Origin: a virus | Lineage: Duplodnaviria; Heunggongvirae; Uroviricota; Caudoviricetes | IMG/VR virus record: IMGVR_UViG_2671180577_000008 | Direction: 5' to 3' (one strand) | Length of the DNA stretch: 4,556 nucleotides | Part shown: positions 1-4,556 of the stretch, piece by piece | Position numbering within the stretch: position 1 is the first letter of the stretch | Layout of the letters: every line of letters starts with the position of its first letter | Notes under the pieces: generated by a model | What the model was told of the DNA's origin: nothing | The model's input: only the letters and a program-made list of their open reading frames with translations | Database searches by the model: none | Translations under genes and position numbers: made by a program

Positions 1-296
1 CCAGCTGTTTAATGCGCGGATCCGGAGCATCGTATGAATCCGGCAGCGGAAGCCCTTCACCGTAAGCCATGGCATTGGACTGCCCGGCCAGTACGATGAC
101 GTAGTACCAATCCGGCTCAGATGAAGGGCCGACCTGTGGCTCTCCTTCAATAGCCACCGCCTGCATCAGTGTGTACGGCGTAATGGCAACCGGTCCGCCG
201 TATGGCTGCCAGCCCTCTTTCAGTTTGTGTGTCAGCTTTTCCGCAAGGTCTGACGGCGACGCCGCCCTGATAACATCGTAATGTTTAATCGACATC
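1..296 (-). CDS. Prophage NanS-p-like sialate (9-O-acetyl-Neu5Ac) O-acetylesterase, N-terminal ~98 codons only (DUF1737-like N-terminus followed by the start of an SGNH/DUF303 esterase domain); the gene continues beyond position 1
   Basis: Minus-strand ATG at 296-294 preceded by GGAG 7 nt upstream. Translation: MSIKHYDVIRAASPSDLAEKLTHKLKEGWQPYGGPVAITPYTLMQAVAIEGEPQVGPSSEPDWYYVIVLAGQSNAMAYGEGLPLPDSYDAPDPRIKQL..., containing the GQSN(A/M)xG esterase block. Position ahead of the lysis module matches nanS-p paralogs of O157 prophages. Open frame runs to the window edge. Confidence 0.7.
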
Positions 297-381: not shown

Positions 382-408
382 AAAAAAAAGGCCGCGCCAT
401 GCGCAGCC
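382..408 (-). terminator. Rho-independent terminator (minus strand) between the moron cassette and the nanS-p-like gene
   Basis: Minus-strand RNA GGCUGCGC-AUG-GCGCGGCC: 8-bp GC-rich stem (one G-U pair), 3-nt loop, followed directly by U8 (plus-strand A8 at 382-389). No T-tract on the plus-strand side, so unidirectional. Confidence 0.6.
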
Positions 409-609
409 GAAAATAAAGGGATAACGATGATAGTTTGAGAAAAACAGAAATAACACTTTTGTGGCAAAGCATGGTGCCGGGTGCCTCCCGGTGAATTCAG
501 TATCAGCACCTGAATCCGCGATTACCCCATATTCCTTCTTGCTGATTGCCCCACCGCACAGGGGGATTCACCATGCAGAAGTGTTTTTAATAAACAGCAA
601 ACAAAAAAA

Positions 610-777
610 TCAAGCATTATGCAGGCTGTTTCTTTTTATCACCGGCCACAGCAATACCACAATGCCGCAGACCAGCACCCCATCCGCCAGCACCGACATG
701 ATTCTGCTGGTGAAATCCACCATCACCACCAGAAACAGCAGGAGTGCAGCCACAGTCAGGCGCAGTTTTACCGTCAC
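610..777 (-). CDS. Small hydrophobic protein (55 aa, two predicted transmembrane helices), translationally coupled to the upstream TerB-like gene; function unknown
   Basis: Not in the supplied ORF track as such. Minus-strand GTG at 777-775 overlaps the TerB-like stop (GTGA) with GGAG 8 nt upstream; stop TGA at 612-610. Translation: MTVKLRLTVAALLLFLVVMVDFTSRIMSVLADGVLVCGIVVLLWPVIKRNSLHNA. Alternative internal ATG at 723 (37 aa) has no usable SD. Start assignment is uncertain. Confidence 0.4.
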   Translation of the reverse strand: MTVKLRLTVAALLLFLVVMVDFTSRIMSVLADGVLVCGIVVLLWPVIKRNSLHNA

Positions 778-1206
778 AGGTAATTCTCCAGACGAAGACC
801 CAGAACACCGGCAATCTCTTCCAGCACCTTGCGCTCTTCCGGCTCAATTTCGCCGTCTGCCTCCGCAATGGCCACCGCCACATCCAGCACATCTTCCGCT
901 TCACGCGTATCGTGTTTCACATCCTCGATCTCACGTAACGCCGCACGACGACCAGTTTTAAAGTTCGTATCCAGCTGACCGATAATGGTTGCGCTAATCG
1001 CATTAATTTCTGACGTAAACGCGTACAGCGCAGGCTGATTACGCAGTACCTGTTCGATCTTCGCTTTCTAGGAAGCCTCACATTCACCATCTGCATAGGC
1101 CACCAGGTAGGCGGCGTTAATCACCACCTGTGCCAGATCGCGTTTTTCAAACTTTTTAATTTCCGTTGCCGCTCTGCGGGCTTTTTTTACCAAAAATACC
1201 AAACAT
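774..1206 (-). pseudogene. TerB-family (tellurite-resistance TerB-like) gene disrupted by a +1 frameshift in an A7 homopolymer (1182-1188) and an in-frame amber codon (TAG at 1070-1068); intact length would be ~143 aa
   Basis: ATG at 1206-1204 with AAGGAA SD 7 nt upstream. Frame A gives MFGIFGKKSPQSGNGN then stop (1158-1156). The +1 frame continues protein-like: ARRAATEIKKFEKRDLAQVVINAAYLVAYADGECEAS-TAG-KAKIEQVLRNQPALYAFTSEINAISATIIGQLDTNFKTGRRAALREIEDVKHDTREAEDVLDVAVAIAEADGEIEPEERKVLEEIAGVLGLRLENYL-stop(776-774). The repeated xADGExxxxE blocks and the C-terminal VAIAEADGEIEPEERKVLEEIAGVLGL are as recalled for the TerB fold. The other two frames are closed around both lesions. Confidence 0.6.
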
Positions 1207-1288
1207 CGTGACGTTCCTTTGGGTGGGTGAGCCAACGCCCGGGAGCGATCTGCCCACAGAGAAAGTCACACTGACCACTCCGTAAGCT

Positions 1289-1298
1289 CCCCCCCCCC
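1289..1298. repeat. Homopolymeric C10 tract (G10 on the coding strand of neighbouring genes), 83-92 nt upstream of the TerB-like start codon
   Basis: Direct read: ctcc cccccccc ga, ten consecutive C at 1289-1298, in the intergenic region between the argO-like tRNA and the TerB-like gene. Confidence 0.9.
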
Positions 1299-1341
1299 GA
1301 AAGGCTCTGTGGTTGGTATGCGCCGGGCGTGGCGCAGATAC

Positions 1342-1365
1342 AAAAAAGGCCCGCAAAAGCGAGCC
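1342..1365 (-). terminator. Rho-independent terminator immediately downstream of the tRNA cluster (minus strand)
   Basis: Minus-strand RNA GGCUCGC-UUUU-GCGGGCC (7-bp stem with one G-U pair, 4-nt loop) followed by U6 (plus-strand A6 at 1342-1347), 17 nt after the argO-like 3' end. Confidence 0.55.
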
Positions 1366-1381
1366 GGGAAAATAAGTGTAG

Positions 1382-1455
1382 CGCGTTGTACTGGAGTCGA
1401 ACCAGTGACCGATTGCTTAGAAGGCAATTGCTCTGTCCTGCTGAGCTAACAACGC
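1382..1455 (-). tRNA. argO: tRNA-Arg, anticodon UCU (reads AGA); prophage argO-type; CCA not encoded
   Basis: Minus-strand sequence GCGTTGT-TA-GCTC-AGCAGGACA-GAGC-A-ATTGC-CTTCTAA-GCAAT-CGGTC-ACTGG-TTCGACT-CCAGT-ACAACGC-G folds as a canonical 74-nt cloverleaf: 7-bp acceptor, 4-bp D stem, 5-bp anticodon stem, loop CU-UCU-AA, T-loop TTCGACT, discriminator G. Confidence 0.85.
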
Positions 1456-1468
1456 AGAATACCGATAA

Positions 1469-1544
1469 TGGACCACCACCGGGGACTCGAACCTCGCACA
1501 CTCAACTTAAAGGGTTGACGCTCTTTCCTGATGGCTAGTGGCGG
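1469..1544 (-). tRNA. argN: tRNA-like gene, argN-type by position and backbone but degenerate: anticodon loop CC-UUU-AA (UUU with C33), weakened D stem; possibly a pseudo-tRNA
   Basis: Minus-strand sequence CCGCCAC-TA-GCCA-TCAGGAAA-GAGC-G-TCAAC-CCTTTAA-GTTGA-GTGTG-CGAGG-TTCGAGT-CCCCG-GTGGTGG-T-CCA. Acceptor pairs 7/7 (one G-U), encoded CCA, T-loop TTCGAGT. Only 2 of 4 D-stem pairs form, one A-C mismatch in the T stem, C instead of the near-universal U33. Backbone aligns block-by-block with E. coli tRNA-Arg(UCU) as recalled (TAGC, AGAGC, CTTCTAA versus CCTTTAA, GGTTCGAAT versus GGTTCGAGT). Confidence 0.5.
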
Positions 1545-1545
1545 T

Positions 1546-1621
1546 TGGTGGCCCTTGCTGGATTTGAACCAGCGACCTGGCGATTATGAGTCGCTCGCTC
1601 TCACCACTGAGCTAAAGGGCC
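1546..1621 (-). tRNA. ileZ: tRNA-Ile2 (anticodon CAU, lysidine-type, reads AUA); prophage ileZ-type (tools often label it tRNA-Met); CCA encoded
   Basis: Minus-strand sequence GGCCCTT-TA-GCTC-AGTGGTGA-GAGC-G-AGCGA-CTCATAA-TCGCC-AGGTC-GCTGG-TTCAAAT-CCAGC-AAGGGCC-A-CCA, a 76-nt cloverleaf, near-identical in layout to E. coli ileX as recalled. Confidence 0.85.
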
Positions 1622-1722: not shown

Positions 1723-1757
1723 ACACAACAAAACCCGCTTGTGGGCGGGTTTTGTTT
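1723..1757 (-). terminator. Intrinsic terminator hairpin (candidate tR'); T-rich on both sides so potentially bidirectional
   Basis: Plus 1730-1753 aaaacccgc-ttgtgg-gcgggtttt: GC core CCCGC/GCGGG extended by A/U pairs. The minus-strand RNA is followed by UUUUGUUGUGU, the plus-strand RNA by UUUUGUUUGCUUUU. Lies ~45-75 nt downstream of the candidate pR' start. Confidence 0.55.
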
Positions 1758-1804: not shown

Positions 1805-1833
1805 AATATATGCCTTTCAATCTACTTTTGCAA
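1805..1833 (-). promoter_or_regulatory. Candidate late promoter pR' (with associated Q-utilisation region), overlapping the 3' end of the Q gene
   Basis: Minus strand TTGCAA (1833-1828), 17-bp spacer, TATATT (1810-1805); immediately downstream of the Q stop codon (1819-1817) and upstream of the tR' hairpin, the expected lambdoid arrangement. Confidence 0.45.
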
Positions 1834-2506
1834 CACTTTGCTTTGAAAATGCCGCCTTTTGTTTTGAACGTGTTCTCATTACAAATAATAAAGCCTCACT
1901 ATCCAGTCGGTGAAAAATGTGTTTCATTGCAACCCAGTGACGAGTAAATGTTTTGGACCAGTTTTTAGTTGTCACTCCCGCCAGTAATGCCAGCTCCTGA
2001 TATTCATAACCTTCCCCACCAAAAAGTTCTGCTTTTACTGCCTGCGCCGCCAGCCAGATTAATTTTTTCAGGCGTTCCTGCGTTTTCCCAGCAATTTTTC
2101 TGGTACCGGATTGAGTATTAAATTCATTCCACGCCCACTGTGTTATCGCGATCTGATATTCCCAACAAATACTCCCGCTGTAACACCACAACAACCAGGC
2201 TTTATGATGTTCTTCAAGAGACAGAACAGCCCGCCGCCACGATGATGTCGAAAACTCAACCGGACTGACCAGAGGAATTGACGTCACCTTCGCCAGCGAT
2301 TGCTTTCCCGGGATTGGTGGATTATCCCGCGTTATCATTTTTCCAGTCACTTCATCGCGGTACCGGATTTTTTTTCGCCTGTAACGCCCTGTATCGAACA
2401 TGGCATTCTCCTGCCAGGCTTCAAGCTGACCTTTTGTTGCCCCACTCAAATCAGCGGTGGCGATAATGAGCTGCTCACGCACAAACTGTAAATAGTGGTT
2501 ATTCAT
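1817..2506 (-). CDS. Late-gene antitermination protein Q (229 aa), probably Q82/QuuQ-like; called from gene order, not from a recognised motif
   Basis: ORF track 1817..2512 (GTG); preferred start is ATG at 2506-2504, which overlaps the rusA stop as ATGA, with GGAG 5 nt upstream. Sits between rusA and pR'/tR'/tRNAs/late genes. Protein MNNHYLQFVREQLIIATADLSG... has no lambda-Q-type paired CxxC zinc finger, so it is not lambda-type Q. Confidence 0.6.
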   Translation of the reverse strand: MNNHYLQFVREQLIIATADLSGATKGQLEAWQENAMFDTGRYRRKKIRYRDEVTGKMITRDNPPIPGKQSLAKVTSIPLVSPVEFSTSSWRRAVLSLEEHHKAWLLWCYSGSICWEYQIAITQWAWNEFNTQSGTRKIAGKTQERLKKLIWLAAQAVKAELFGGEGYEYQELALLAGVTTKNWSKTFTRHWVAMKHIFHRLDSEALLFVMRTRSKQKAAFSKQSVAKVD

Positions 2507-2868
2507 GCGCACTCCAGTTCTGTGATTTTTATCCCCAGCCGCCCACCAGGAACGAGCTGACCGCGCACAATATTGATTTCATCAAACTGCTCGTCGTCTA
2601 TGAGAAGTCCGGCATGCGTCAGCACATCCAGTGGTGCTTTCAGGATATTGTCCAGGTCACGACGGCGCTTATCCGGTGGCTCTGCAATAATCTTTATCAC
2701 CAGCCTTCCGGACAGGTTTAATTTCAGCCGCTGCTGGCGAACAATTAGCGCCACATCACGGCGATAACTCTTTCCGGCTTCCGAGATGAAATACGTATTG
2801 CCATGACGTCGCCAGTAGGTATTCACCGTCGGCGGGTAAGGCAAAACAAATTCTATCCGTTCAGTCAT
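2503..2868 (-). CDS. rusA: RusA-family Holliday-junction resolvase (121 aa)
   Basis: Translation MTERIEFVLPYPPTVNTYWRRHGNTYFISEAGKSYRRDVALIV...AEPPDKRRRDLDNILKAPLDVLTHAGLLIDDEQFDEINIVRGQLVPGGRLGIKITELE carries the RusA signature blocks (LPxPPSxN, DRRRRDLDN, DDxQ) as recalled from DLP12 RusA. ATG at 2868 abuts the upstream stop (TGAATG). Confidence 0.85.
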   Translation of the reverse strand: MTERIEFVLPYPPTVNTYWRRHGNTYFISEAGKSYRRDVALIVRQQRLKLNLSGRLVIKIIAEPPDKRRRDLDNILKAPLDVLTHAGLLIDDEQFDEINIVRGQLVPGGRLGIKITELECA

Positions 2869-3924
2869 TCATGCTTTCCACTTCAGGACACCCGAATTTC
2901 TCGCGTGCATTAAAAAACGAATCAGCAACAACAGCTGGCTGCCGTGTTTTTCTTCAAAATCTTTTACCCCAGCGTGCAGTTCGTTATGACATTTACGGCA
3001 CAGCGGAATAACAAACAAATCATCAGCCTTTGTTCCCATCCCTCCCAGTCCATGACCAATGATGTGATGCGGATCATCTGCCTGATTACCGCACGTCATG
3101 CATTTCTGCGTTTTTACCCAGCGCGTGTATACAGGCATCTCTTCCCGTTGTGGTTTCTGGCGCTGGAGATACTGAGCCGGTGACTCCGGATCAACGGCAA
3201 TGCTGACCACCGTCTTTTCCTGTGGCGGGTTTTGCTGGTGGGCGTGAGGCAGCGGCGCAAGATTTTTTGTGCGCTGCTTCAGTATGATGGTGGCGGTCTG
3301 CTCTCCCGGTACGATGTCGCTTTCACGGTACATTGAGCGGATTTTTTCCGCACGCAACCCCAGCGAACGACGTAATACCGCTTCCGGTAGCGCGTCCGCC
3401 ACCTGATTGCGGACCGCCCACCAGGATAATTCAGCCAGAGATAATTCACGCTCCTGCGTACCGCTTATTGCGTGACCGATGACGTCAATCATCCATGCTG
3501 ACAGGTTTTGATGAGCAAGTTGCTCGAGTGATTCGGATGTCTGGTCACGCAGCTGGTTGTCGCAGTGCCAGCACAACACCATTGCGCCGGTACCATAACG
3601 GTGAATAACGGTTTCACTGTGATGATAGTCACCATGAGGCCACTGGCAGGATTTGACATGACGCAACAGCCAGTCAGACAGTGCACCAGCGCCACCAACA
3701 GCACGAATCACACGCTCATTGCTGAAAAACGGCAGTAATGATTTATCCTCCGCCAGCGGCTGGCGAACGGCAGGGACGATGCCGGACGGCAGACCGCGCA
3801 TGCTTTTCGGTTCCGGCTCCACAAGCACTCGAGGGTTATGGAATACCTGCATGGATTCACGGCCTGGTTTAAGGACCACCAACCCAAGTTCCGGTACCGG
3901 AACAGGTCGAAGTAATACCCGCAC
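2869..3924 (-). CDS. DUF968 / YdfU-family prophage protein (351 aa) with two Cys/His-rich HNH-like (putative nuclease/zinc-binding) motifs
   Basis: Long minus-strand ORF. GTG start at 3924 with GGAGG SD 4 nt upstream, 1 nt after the upstream TAA; alternative ATG at 3852. Motifs: CQWPHGDYHHSETVIHRYGTGAMVLCWHCDNQL and C-terminal CMTCGNQADDPHHIIGHGLGGMGTKADDLFVIPLCRKCHNELH. Stop TGA at 2871-2869 directly abuts the rusA ATG. Confidence 0.65.
   Translation of the reverse strand: MRVLLRPVPVPELGLVVLKPGRESMQVFHNPRVLVEPEPKSMRGLPSGIVPAVRQPLAEDKSLLPFFSNERVIRAVGGAGALSDWLLRHVKSCQWPHGDYHHSETVIHRYGTGAMVLCWHCDNQLRDQTSESLEQLAHQNLSAWMIDVIGHAISGTQERELSLAELSWWAVRNQVADALPEAVLRRSLGLRAEKIRSMYRESDIVPGEQTATIILKQRTKNLAPLPHAHQQNPPQEKTVVSIAVDPESPAQYLQRQKPQREEMPVYTRWVKTQKCMTCGNQADDPHHIIGHGLGGMGTKADDLFVIPLCRKCHNELHAGVKDFEEKHGSQLLLLIRFLMHARNSGVLKWKA
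3888..3903. repeat. Perfect 16-bp palindrome GTTCCGGTACCGGAAC inside the 5' end of the DUF968 gene (codons ~8-13)
   Basis: Direct read; the sequence equals its own reverse complement (CCGG-flanked GGTACC core) and lies 21-36 nt downstream of the GTG start. Confidence 0.9.
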
Positions 3925-4405: not shown

Positions 4406-4556
4406 TGAACCGCCCCGGGAATCCTGGAGACTAAACTTCCTGAGAAAGAGGTAAACAGGATGACTAAAAATACTCGTTTTTCCCCTGAAGTCCGTCAACG
4501 GGCAGTCCGTATGGTTCTGGAAAGTCAGGGCGAATATGACTCACAATGGGCGACAA
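4406..4556 (+). mobile_element. IS629-like (IS3 family; IS629/IS1203) insertion sequence, left end only; element continues beyond the window
   Basis: Terminal TGAACCGCCCCGGGAATCCTGGAGACTAAACTTCC... begins at 4406 (IS3-family TG terminus) and is followed by the orfA start; matches the IS629 left end as recalled. Confidence 0.75.
4460..4556 (+). CDS. IS3-family transposase OrfA (IS629 orfA), N-terminal 32 codons; 3' partial
   Basis: ATG at 4460 with AGAGG/CAGGA SD upstream. Translation [32 protein letters not shown], the helix-turn-helix N-terminus recalled for IS629/IS1203 OrfA. Open to the window end. Confidence 0.8.

What the first reader, a model, noticed from the sequence alone, without database searches (positions are those of the whole stretch)
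610..1206. The stx slot of a Stx-phage-like late region holds a TerB-like gene plus a coupled small membrane ORF
Gene order on the minus strand is Q - pR' - tR' - ileZ/argN/argO tRNAs - cargo - nanS-p-like esterase. In Stx phages the cargo position is stxAB. Here it holds a TerB-family gene (774-1206) whose stop overlaps (GTGA) the start of an unlisted 55-aa two-helix hydrophobic ORF (610-777). Like stx, the pair would be expressed mainly under Q antitermination on prophage induction. TerB-domain proteins recur in stress and anti-phage contexts, so a TerB plus membrane-partner pair in the toxin slot is a candidate induction-linked moron of unknown function. The TerB-like gene is disrupted in this copy, so the useful target is any intact allele.
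Basis: partly seen in the sequence, partly recalled or inferred. Interest (0 to 1): 0.6.

Follow-up and report, generated by a model that had tools for sequence, protein, structure and literature searches.

The report
Known phage tciA–tciB cassette, decayed copy
The stretch is a broken copy of tciA–tciB, a phage gene pair already named and annotated (a TerB-like protein plus a tiny membrane protein). It sits where Shiga-toxin phages carry their toxin genes, so the finding is real but not new; the one unlisted item is a conserved structured RNA leader in front of the pair.

Summary
**Observation: confirmed.** On the minus strand the order is Q, promoter-like site, terminator, tRNAs, a TerB-family gene (774-1206), an overlapping 55-aa membrane ORF (610-777), then the nanS-p-like esterase.

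**Identity: already known.**
- The pair is tciA/tciB, named in phage P1 and annotated under those names in the same slot of phage JLK-2012.
- Families are Pfam TerB plus DUF3927; PHROGs files both as morons; RefSeq annotates both.
- It occurs in 840 of 5,426 complete E. coli genomes, with a median of six copies per genome.
- Against a Stx2a phage, the flanks are 96% identical and only stx2AB versus leader+tciAB differ, so the swap is clean.
- A DUF3927 ORF follows tciA in 98 of 103 related loci.

**Function:** unknown experimentally. P1 tciABC score as non-essential in a CRISPRi screen.
- My best guess is a membrane-docked TerB module that acts during lytic growth.

**Extra features:**
- An STnc100 sRNA lies directly after tciB.
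- A ~140-nt leader that sequesters the Shine-Dalgarno site precedes tciA. It shows strong covariation, has no Rfam 15 match, and also occurs before other phage accessory genes.

The parts
1817..2512 (-). Q antiterminator gene (phage-82-like type), backbone upstream of the slot
   Evidence: Pfam PF06323 E=1e-90; RefSeq 'bacteriophage antitermination protein Q' in L001
1805..1833 (-). promoter-like hexamers (TTGCAA-17-TATATT), candidate pR'
   Evidence: consensus scan; function inferred from position only
1727..1756 (.). GC-rich hairpin with U-rich flank, candidate tR'
   Evidence: scan (scored on the + strand). The same palindrome reads CCCGC-loop-GCGGG-UUUUGUU on the minus strand. Inferred.
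1546..1621 (-). tRNA with CAU anticodon (ileZ-like; RefSeq calls it tRNA-Ile)
   Evidence: ARAGORN, Rfam 72.5 bits, annotation in L001
1469..1544 (-). degenerate argN-like tRNA remnant
   Evidence: ARAGORN calls Lys-ttt; no Rfam hit; not annotated in L001/L002; intact Arg-tcg in most related loci
1381..1455 (-). tRNA-Arg (UCU), argO-like
   Evidence: ARAGORN, Rfam 68.1 bits
1348..1365 (-). terminator-like hairpin after the tRNAs (GGCTCGC-TTTT-GCGGGCC + T6)
   Evidence: scan; shared with Stx phages
1204..1345 (-). Conserved structured 5' leader of tciA. Elements: P0 hairpin 1320-1335; P1 1305-1312 with 1254-1261; anti-SD CCUUU 1300-1304; S strand 1286-1298 (here damaged to G10-AGC); GGCUCACCC 1225-1233; SD AAAGG 1216-1220. 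The left cargo junction with Stx phages lies at about 1331.
   Evidence: covariance model R1 125.9 bits, E=2e-35; covariation counts; no Rfam family; junction
774..1206 (-). tciA (TerB family) pseudogene: +1 frameshift in the A-run (T-run 1182-1188 on the + strand) and amber at 1068-1070
   Evidence: phrog_632 E=1e-64
610..777 (-). tciB (DUF3927), 55 aa, two hydrophobic helices, intact; GTG start overlaps the tciA stop (GTGA)
   Evidence: Pfam PF13064 E=3e-17; phrog_1470 E=6e-30; alignment A3; hydropathy
433..605 (-). STnc100-family sRNA directly after tciB; homology with Stx phages resumes here (right cargo junction at about 594)
   Evidence: Rfam RF02076 100.8 bits against a gathering score of 47; same position in L003/L007/L008; junction
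390..408 (-). terminator-like hairpin before the esterase gene
   Evidence: scan
1..295 (-). 5' end of the nanS-p-like SASA carbohydrate esterase (DUF1737 N-domain), backbone downstream of the slot
   Evidence: Pfam PF08410 E=1e-16; RefSeq annotation in L001

Best explanation
**What it is**
Window 610-1206(-) is a decayed copy of the phage tciA-tciB cassette. TciA is a stand-alone TerB-fold protein of 143 aa. TciB is a DUF3927 inner-membrane protein of 50-55 aa with two helices. The cassette comprises its own ~140-nt structured leader, tciA and tciB. It is the common non-toxin occupant of the Q-tRNA-[cargo]-STnc100-nanS-p slot of EHEC-type lambdoid prophages, and it replaces stxAB there.

**How it most likely works (inferred)**
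1. In intact copies the late pR' transcript, made terminator-resistant by Q, reads through tR' and the post-tRNA terminator into the cassette.
2. Translation of tciA is gated by the leader, in which an invariant CCUUU pairs with the Shine-Dalgarno AAAGG.
3. tciB is translated by coupling at the overlapping stop and start codons.
4. TciB anchors or recruits the amphitropic TerB protein at the inner membrane.
5. There the pair acts during lytic growth. It either buffers membrane stress or excludes competing phages and colicins, echoing the phage-inhibition and colicin-resistance phenotypes of the ter operon. Tellurite resistance as such is unlikely.

**This copy**
TciA cannot be made here (frameshift plus amber, and a damaged leader helix). 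At most tciB, the sRNA and the tRNAs remain functional.
For: **Identity (shown)**
- Pfam TerB and DUF3927; PHROGs 632 and 1470; solved TerB 2JXU.
- About 40-42% identity over the full length to P1 TciA, and 50% to P1 TciB.
- GenBank names tciA/tciB in the same slot of JLK-2012.

**Slot (shown)**
- Stx2a_WGPS2 against FORC_043: 96.1% identity up to about 49 nt past argO, an unrelated cargo, then 96.7% again from STnc100.
- At most 2 of the 128 TciA-positive phage records can carry a Stx-phage name, while one search lists 66 Stx-named phage records in the same collection.

**Coupling (shown)**
- A DUF3927 ORF overlaps or abuts the tciA stop in 98 of 103 loci, down to 40% TciA identity.
- The pair also occurs in jumbo phages, Schitoviridae and phage LMessi.
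- Its presence in virulent phages argues for a role in lytic growth.

**Late expression (inferred)**
- No sigma-70-like promoter at 1207-1347(-), and terminators on both sides of the cassette.

**Leader (shown as a structure; function inferred)**
- 94% of cells paired, against 32-49% for slid controls.
- 19 of 34 pairs have changes on both sides, against 9.5±1.9 in shuffles. Five of these lie in the SD/anti-SD helix, which the covariance model did not encode.
- Folding pairs the SD with p about 0.9-1.0 in many homologues.

**Membrane-module idea (by analogy)**
- TerB domains partner membrane proteins in the Bunzi, Shango and Dionysus defence systems.
Against: - No experiment on any TciA or TciB was found.
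- P1 tciA, tciB and tciC score as non-essential in a CRISPRi screen (PMC10695390).
- No physical TciA-TciB interaction was tested.
- TerB occurs without DUF3927 in Pseudomonas PMBT3 and Vibrio D520. DUF3927 occurs without TerB in phage 434 and in one E. coli prophage. The partnership is therefore not obligatory.
- PADLOC models for defence proteins do not match.
- In P1 the pair lies in the C1-controlled ban operon, not a Q-dependent late operon, so its regulation differs between phages.
- Many E. coli copies are pseudogenes, which suggests weak selection in resident prophages.
Confidence: 0.55

Rival explanations
1. tciAB is an anti-phage (superinfection-exclusion or abortive-infection) module. 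TciA would be a TerB 'membrane surveillance' sensor and TciB a small membrane effector that depolarises or blocks entry, analogous to TerB-containing defence systems.
For: TerB domains occur in the validated defence systems Bunzi, Shango and Dionysus, the last pairing a TerB-like protein with a pore-forming membrane protein. The ter operon has a phage-inhibition phenotype (established knowledge, named in the P1 annotation). The pair sits in a prophage moron slot.
Against: No PADLOC match apart from a marginal PDC-S48 hit at E=0.009. The pair is also carried by strictly virulent phages and jumbo phages. Many prophage copies are pseudogenes. No test has been reported.
Confidence: 0.25
2. tciAB modulates lysis timing by acting on the holin or on the proton-motive force, because it usually sits just upstream of the lysis cassette.
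For: In Pantoea, Pseudescherichia and Buttiauxella prophages and in phage LMessi the pair lies 270-1050 nt upstream of a class II holin gene. In E. coli only nanS-p separates it from the holin. TciB resembles small two-helix holin-like proteins in size and topology.
Against: In P1, jumbo phages and Schitoviridae the pair is far from the lysis genes. TciB has no Pfam or PHROG link to holins.
Confidence: 0.1
3. The pair confers tellurite or colicin resistance on the lysogen, that is, classical lysogenic conversion as the annotation name implies.
For: Family name and homology to the ter-operon TerB. [quoted passage not shown]
Against: No terC, terD, terE or terZ gene accompanies it in any locus. 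Published opinion is that a lone terB is unlikely to give resistance (PMC8421299; PMC3728262). No promoter for lysogenic expression was detected.
Confidence: 0.05
4. In this window the region is simply an inert relic, and nothing in 610-1206 is expressed as functional protein.
For: There is a frameshift, an amber codon and a damaged leader helix. The same dead allele is present as an exact 61-mer in 186 complete genome records. Premature termination should weaken coupled translation of tciB.
Against: tciB is intact, has its own GGAG, and stays full-length in most amber alleles. This rival concerns only this copy, not the family.
Confidence: 0.5

Closest known systems
Phage P1 tciA-tciB-tciC (GenBank AF234172)
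   Same: TerB-family TciA (about 40-42% identity over the full length) directly followed by DUF3927 TciB (50% identity). tRNA genes lie nearby. Function is assigned only by homology.
   Different: P1 has a third small membrane gene, tciC, which is absent here. P1's copy lies in the C1-controlled ban operon rather than behind Q. P1 lacks the structured leader (no R1 hit).
Escherichia phage JLK-2012 (JQ347801), tciA/tciB
   Same: The same slot, Q-tRNAs-tciA-tciB-yjhS(nanS-p)-S-R-Rz. TciA is 96% identical. It has the same leader and the same STnc100.
   Different: Its tciA is intact. It has a different Q type and a different tRNA set (Asn, Thr, Gly). The tciB C-terminus differs.
stxAB moron of Stx phages
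   Same: Identical backbone position and flanks (methylase, ileZ-argN-argO, post-tRNA terminator, STnc100 region, nanS-p), presumably under the same Q-dependent transcription.
   Different: The cargo is unrelated: AB5 toxin versus a TerB protein plus a membrane peptide. The tciAB cargo brings its own SD-sequestering leader, which Stx phages lack.
TerB of the terZABCDE operon (Klebsiella TerB, PDB 2JXU)
   Same: Same domain and size. The paired DG-x5-E acidic motifs are conserved (YADGECEASE and EADGEIEPEE).
   Different: No other ter genes are present. The partner is DUF3927, not TerC. Sequence similarity is distant (E=6e-7).
TerB-containing defence systems (Bunzi, Shango, Dionysus)
   Same: A TerB-type protein teamed with membrane proteins, with a proposed 'membrane surveillance' role.
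   Different: No PADLOC model matches. There is no helicase, ATPase or pore-forming-toxin partner. tciAB is encoded by phages, not by defence islands.
STnc100 / PasD prophage sRNAs (Rfam RF02076)
   Same: The element at 433-605 is a full-length member, upstream of the sialate esterase gene as described for PasD2.
   Different: It belongs to the backbone shared with Stx phages rather than to the cargo.

Membership tests
TerB family (Pfam PF05099) | Match to the family profile above the curated cut-off | tested here: met
   46.5 bits against a cut-off of 24.4, residues 30-137 of the repaired protein
TerB family (Pfam PF05099) | Full-length similarity to a solved TerB structure | tested here: met
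   2JXU_A, E=5.7e-7, query residues 15-137 against chain residues 21-144. The fold itself was not predicted here.
TerB family (Pfam PF05099) | Two repeated acidic D-G-x5-E motifs | tested here: met
   D39, G40, E46 and D117, G118, E123/E124 are invariant in alignment A2. The window's amber codon replaces E46.
ter operon (tellurite resistance system) | Co-occurrence with terC, terD, terE or terZ | tested here: not met
   No ter genes in the window or in the annotated loci L001-L008
ter operon (tellurite resistance system) | Tellurite, colicin or phage-inhibition phenotype | not testable with these tools
   Needs MIC and plaque assays
P1-type tciAB(C) cassette | TerB-family TciA homologue | tested here: met
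   About 40% by tblastn and 42% in the alignment, over the full length, to P1 TciA; phrog_632 E=1e-64
P1-type tciAB(C) cassette | DUF3927 (TciB) gene immediately downstream, with overlapping or abutting stop and start | tested here: met
   PF13064 at 62.6 bits; GTGA overlap in the window; 98 of 103 loci
P1-type tciAB(C) cassette | Third small membrane gene tciC | tested here: not met
   P1 TciC (35 aa) has no counterpart. The STnc100 sRNA follows tciB here.
Moron in the Q-to-lysis slot of lambdoid phages (as stxAB) | Same backbone junctions as stxAB | tested here: met
   Flanks 96.1% and 96.7% identical to Stx2a_WGPS2, with only the cargo differing
Moron in the Q-to-lysis slot of lambdoid phages (as stxAB) | Transcription dependent on Q and prophage induction | not testable with these tools
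   Only indirect evidence: no promoter-like site in the leader, and terminators on both sides
Known anti-phage defence systems (PADLOC-DB 2.0) | Match to a defence protein model | tested here: not met
   Only PDC-S48 at E=0.0094 for TciA; nothing for TciB
Rfam RNA families (for the tciA leader) | Match to any of 4,227 covariance models | tested here: not met
   No hit on 1204-1345 at E<=1, nor on intact leaders at E<=10 or at gathering score

The most novel reading that the evidence does not exclude
The ~140-nt leader carried by the cassette (window 1204-1345) may be an undescribed riboswitch-like or factor-responsive translational switch. It is pseudoknotted and locks the Shine-Dalgarno site.

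It is shared, as a portable 5' UTR, by accessory genes of lambdoid and jumbo phages: tciA, P22_AR_N and ANT antirepressor-like genes, an HNH endonuclease, and tail-tip-like genes. On this reading tciAB is a signal-gated membrane module rather than a passively co-transcribed moron.

The weaker claim is that this is a genuine, conserved cis-acting RNA structure absent from Rfam 15. I put that at roughly 0.7. The specific claim that it senses a ligand or signal is what the probability given here refers to.
Probability: 0.15. Interest if true: 0.8.

Novelty: already known. Interest (0 to 1): 0.3.

Why it matters
**The gene pair**
- It matters little as a discovery. It is a named, widely annotated phage moron, and this copy is dead.
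- It is a clean example of cargo exchange at the toxin slot of Stx-type prophages.
- It is very abundant in EHEC (median six copies per genome), yet nobody appears to have tested what it does. Intact alleles are easy to obtain.

**The leader RNA**
- It is more useful as a lead. If it is a real switch, it would explain how lambdoid and jumbo phages control translation of otherwise unrelated accessory genes.
- It would also give a handle (reporter fusions, ligand or factor screens) on the signal that TerB-type modules respond to. That question has been open since the ter operon was described.

Tried and rejected
**Allele counting**
- I tried to count dead and intact alleles in E. coli with 61-nt allele-specific queries. 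The exact TAG 61-mer is in 186 records. Background SNPs make the remaining identity bands uninterpretable.
- IMG/VR scans for TAG and GAG each returned 83 stretches. That looks like a cap, so no frequencies can be drawn; I used the loci only to survey allele combinations.

**Database searches that added nothing**
- NCBIfam: only a sub-threshold DjlA match (28.7 bits against 162), reflecting DjlA's TerB-like segment.
- PADLOC: nothing usable.
- Promoter scan: no candidate moron promoter upstream of tciA.

**Leader structure**
- An alternative nested fold (Ha GAGCC/GGCUC, Hb, Hc) was tested. Ha and Hb keep their pairing potential (97% and 93%), but Hc fails: its helix, counted together with the inner hairpin, is only 71% paired. 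I therefore keep that fold only as a possible 'ON' conformer.
- The window's own leader folds only marginally better than shuffles (z=-1.87). That fits its damaged helix.

**Literature**
- Searches for tciA/tciB function, DUF3927, TerB plus riboswitch, and the leader's sequence strings found nothing relevant.
- The P1 genome paper is not held.

**Not run**
- The large protein-database searches, structure prediction and fold search. Pfam, PHROGs, PDB and RefSeq annotation already settled identity.
Full report
**1. What is in the window**

All features below lie on the minus strand.

| Feature | Coordinates | Basis |
|---|---|---|
| DUF968 gene | 2869-3924 | Pfam |
| RusA | 2503-2868 | Pfam |
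| Q antiterminator (PF06323, E=1e-90) | 1817-2512 | |
| Promoter-like hexamers | 1805-1833 | |
| GC-rich hairpin | 1727-1756 | |
| Three tRNA-like genes | 1381-1621 | |
| Terminator-like hairpin | 1348-1365 | |
| TerB-like reading frame, in pieces | 774-1206 | |
| 55-aa GTG ORF | 610-777 | |
| Terminator-like hairpin | 390-408 | |
| Start of a DUF1737/SASA esterase | 295 | |

- The middle tRNA (1469-1544) is degenerate. ARAGORN calls it Lys-ttt, Rfam does not hit it, and RefSeq omits it in the nearest relatives.

**2. The two lesions**

- The intact homologue in phage JLK-2012 is 143 aa and starts MFGIFGKKARRA.
- A nucleotide alignment (A1) shows an extra A in the window's A-run: A7 against A6, at T-run 1182-1188 on the + strand.
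- The same alignment shows GAG>TAG at codon 46 (1068-1070).
- RefSeq's pipeline hides the frameshift. It starts at a TTG at window 1202 and reports only an internal stop.
- The amber codon replaces an invariant glutamate of the first DG-x5-E motif.

**3. Identity**

- The repaired protein matches Pfam TerB at 46.5 bits (cut-off 24.4).
- The 55-aa ORF matches DUF3927 at 62.6 bits (cut-off 25).
- PHROGs places them in phrog_632 ('tellurite resistance', E=1e-64) and phrog_1470 ('TciB-like inhibition of cell division or resistance to colicin', E=6e-30). Both are in the moron category.
- The solved Klebsiella TerB (2JXU) aligns over the whole length at E=6e-7.
- TciB has two hydrophobic stretches, basic ends, and invariant D21 and D32.
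- The names come from phage P1. There tciA, tciB and tciC lie next to tRNA genes in the ban operon, and their function is assigned 'by homology' only.
- PADLOC has no match.
- NCBIfam gives only a sub-threshold DjlA hit.

**4. It is already annotated, in this very slot**

- GenBank JQ347801 (phage JLK-2012, from O55:H7) reads Q, three tRNAs, tciA, tciB, yjhS, S, R, Rz.
- RefSeq annotates 'tellurite resistance TerB family protein | DUF3927 family protein' at this locus in hundreds of genomes.
- The 597-nt pair is found in 840 of 5,426 complete E. coli genomes. In 803 genomes a match covers at least 80% of it. The median is six places per genome and the maximum is ten.
- Intact alleles exist in JE86-ST02 and FORC_043.
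- The closest relatives of the window, including an O157:H7 strain, carry the internal stop.
- The exact 61-mer with TAG is in 186 records.
- In IMG/VR loci the amber occurs together with the A7 frameshift or with a replaced 5' end, rarely alone. A7 also occurs with GAG.
- tciB stays full-length in most amber alleles.
- This pattern suggests decay and exchange among co-resident prophages.

**5. The stx-slot claim holds at nucleotide level**

I compared Stx2a_WGPS2 with the FORC_043 prophage.
- They are 96.1% identical through the methylase gene and ileZ-argN-argO, to about 49 nt past argO.
- Then 1,324 nt (stx2AB) face 746 nt (leader, tciA, tciB) with no similarity.
- Identity resumes at 96.7% in the STnc100 region and continues into nanS-p.
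- In the window the junctions fall near 1331 and 594.
- At most 2 of the 128 TciA-positive phage records can carry a Stx-phage name. One search lists 66 Stx-named records sharing the downstream intergenic segment.

**6. The two ORFs travel together**

- Of 103 loci recovered with TciA from IMG/VR and from one genome per species, 98 have a DUF3927 ORF overlapping or abutting the tciA stop.
- Four of the five exceptions are cut by contig ends.
- The pairing holds down to 40% TciA identity, for example in contigs labelled Rosenbergiella, Erwinia, Citrobacter and Pseudomonas.
- The pair is also present in Machinavirus and Erskinevirus jumbo phages, in the virulent Schitoviridae phage FSL SP-076, and in phage LMessi between Q and the holin.
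- More distant TerB genes in Pseudomonas PMBT3 and Vibrio D520 lack it.
- DUF3927 occurs without TerB, behind an uncharacterised 231-248-aa protein, in phage 434 and in one chicken E. coli isolate.
- In E. coli the usual context is ileZ-argN-argO upstream and nanS-p and the holin downstream. In other genera the pair sits just before a class II holin.

**7. Function**

- I found no experimental study.
- A P1 CRISPRi screen scores tciA, tciB and tciC as non-essential (PMC10695390).
- Authors who noted lone phage terB genes doubted a role in tellurite resistance (PMC8421299; PMC3728262).
- TerB domains have since been found in the defence systems Bunzi, Shango and Dionysus. There they accompany membrane proteins, and 'membrane surveillance' is proposed.
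- My preferred reading is inferred, not shown. TciB docks the TerB protein at the inner membrane, and the pair acts during lytic growth.
- Carriage by virulent phages supports this reading. The position next to the lysis genes in lambdoid phages supports it too.
- The rivals are superinfection exclusion, lysis timing and classical resistance conversion.

**8.

*(a) An sRNA after tciB.*
- Rfam finds a full-length STnc100 sRNA at 433-605(-), 100.8 bits against a gathering score of 47. It begins five bases after the tciB stop.
- The same element follows tciB in other loci.
- A 2026 preprint relates STnc100 to PasD and lists TerB among the conserved neighbours of PasA and PasC.

*(b) A conserved leader before tciA.*
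- The ~140 nt between the post-tRNA terminator and tciA are conserved far beyond what the proteins would predict. They are conserved in E. coli, Pantoea, Pseudescherichia, Franconibacter, Buttiauxella, Citrobacter and Enterobacter prophages, where TciA identity falls to 41-44%. They are also conserved in jumbo phages and in a metagenomic lineage.
- The conserved elements are:
  - a hairpin P0;
  - a helix P1 (CCACAGAG/CUCUGUGG; CCGUAGAG/CUCUACGG in jumbo phages);
  - a variable hairpin P2;
  - a long helix in which CCUUU-C-RG-GGGUGAGC pairs with GCUCACCC-N-CY-N-AAAGG, so that it buries the Shine-Dalgarno sequence.
- On a MAFFT alignment of 32 distinct sequences, 93% of cells pair, against 38-55% for slid partners.
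- On a model-based alignment of 46 distinct sequences, 94% pair against 32-49%. There, 19 of 34 pairs show changes on both sides, against 9.5±1.9 in shuffles (0 of 500).
- Five of those 19 pairs lie in the SD/anti-SD helix, which was not part of the model used to align.
- G·U pairs are frequent, so the structure fits the mRNA strand only.
- Thermodynamic folding pairs the SD with CCUUU at p about 0.9-1.0 in many homologues.
- P1 and the long helix interleave as a pseudoknot, or they are alternative conformers.
- A second nested fold that frees the SD keeps partial support.
- No Rfam 15 family matches, and no paper in the library contains the sequence.
- The covariance model hits the window at 1204-1345 (125.9 bits).
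- It does not hit Stx phages, P1 or phage 434. The leader therefore belongs to the cargo, not the backbone.
- Divergent members precede other accessory genes:
  - a P22_AR_N antirepressor-like gene inside the lysis cassette of the same prophages;
  - an ANT/KilAC gene;
  - an HNH endonuclease gene;
  - tail-tip-like genes.
- In the window, GGGGGUGAGC has become G10-AGC (C-run 1289-1298 on the + strand). This tract varies from G6 to G12 among alleles. The leader of this copy is therefore damaged too.

**9. Verdict**

- The subject is an already named and widely annotated cassette, and this copy is a pseudogene.
- Interest in the finding as submitted is low.
- The leader RNA is the only element that looks undescribed, and it deserves separate follow-up.

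Noticed in passing
window 1204-1345 (-): Conserved, covarying, pseudoknotted leader upstream of tciA that sequesters the Shine-Dalgarno site. No Rfam 15 match. Found in lambdoid prophages of many Enterobacterales, in jumbo phages and in a metagenomic lineage.
   Followed up: yes
L001 9387-9530; L229 8787-8934; L267 1295-1441(-); L391 6770-6917; L342 8225-8348; L092 7444-7563: Divergent members of the same leader family precede unrelated accessory genes: P22_AR_N and ANT/KilAC antirepressor-like genes, an HNH_3 endonuclease gene, and Phage_Tail_Tip-like genes. The leader therefore looks like a portable 5' UTR.
   Followed up: partly
window 433-605 (-): Full-length STnc100-family sRNA (RF02076, 100.8 bits) begins 5 nt after the tciB stop. 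Its 5' part is the first sequence shared again with Stx1 and Stx2 phages downstream of stxB.
   Followed up: partly
window 1469-1544 (-): The middle tRNA of the ileZ-argN-argO trio is degenerate here. ARAGORN calls it Lys-ttt, Rfam does not hit it, and RefSeq does not annotate it in the closest genomes. Most related loci keep Arg-tcg.
   Followed up: partly
window 1289-1298 (C-run on the + strand): The poly-G tract in the leader varies among alleles: G5-U-G in intact leaders, and G6, G7, G8, G10, G11 or G12 elsewhere. A U>G change seems to have created a slippage-prone run inside the S helix.
   Followed up: partly
window 1200-1206 and L001 5199: RefSeq's pipeline starts the pseudogene at a TTG (window 1202) and reports only 'internal stop'. 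This masks the A-run frameshift relative to the conserved ATG start.
   Followed up: yes
IMG/VR loci L113-L192: The same GAG>TAG amber is found with different second lesions: the A7 frameshift, or a replaced 5' end. About 14 loci also have a shortened 43-aa tciB. This suggests spread of the dead allele by recombination among co-resident prophages, which carry a median of six copies per genome.
   Followed up: partly
L004 (P1), L003 (JLK-2012), L280/L281/L285-L287 (jumbo phages), L099: tciAB is flanked by tRNA genes in otherwise unrelated phages: Asn/Thr/Ile in P1, Asn/Thr/Gly in JLK-2012, Ile/Arg/Arg in EHEC prophages, and Trp/Cys in jumbo phages. The reason is unknown.
   Followed up: no
L005 3112-4344 (phage 434); L009 2138-3125: DUF3927 occurs without TerB, preceded by a 231-248-aa protein with no Pfam match. 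In phage 434 it is followed by another small membrane protein, in the same Q-to-lysis slot.
   Followed up: partly
window 4460-4556 (+): This is the start of an IS3-family transposase ORF ([19 protein letters not shown]...). I recognise it from memory as IS629/IS1203-like. It abuts the prophage early-right region. Most close relatives match the window only up to 4406; the single full-length match (O55:H7 DEC5E) is in two pieces.
   Followed up: no
L009 4966-5109: Weak hit of the leader model (12 bits, E=0.27) overlapping the start of a Rha-family regulator gene. It may be another remote member or it may be chance.
   Followed up: no
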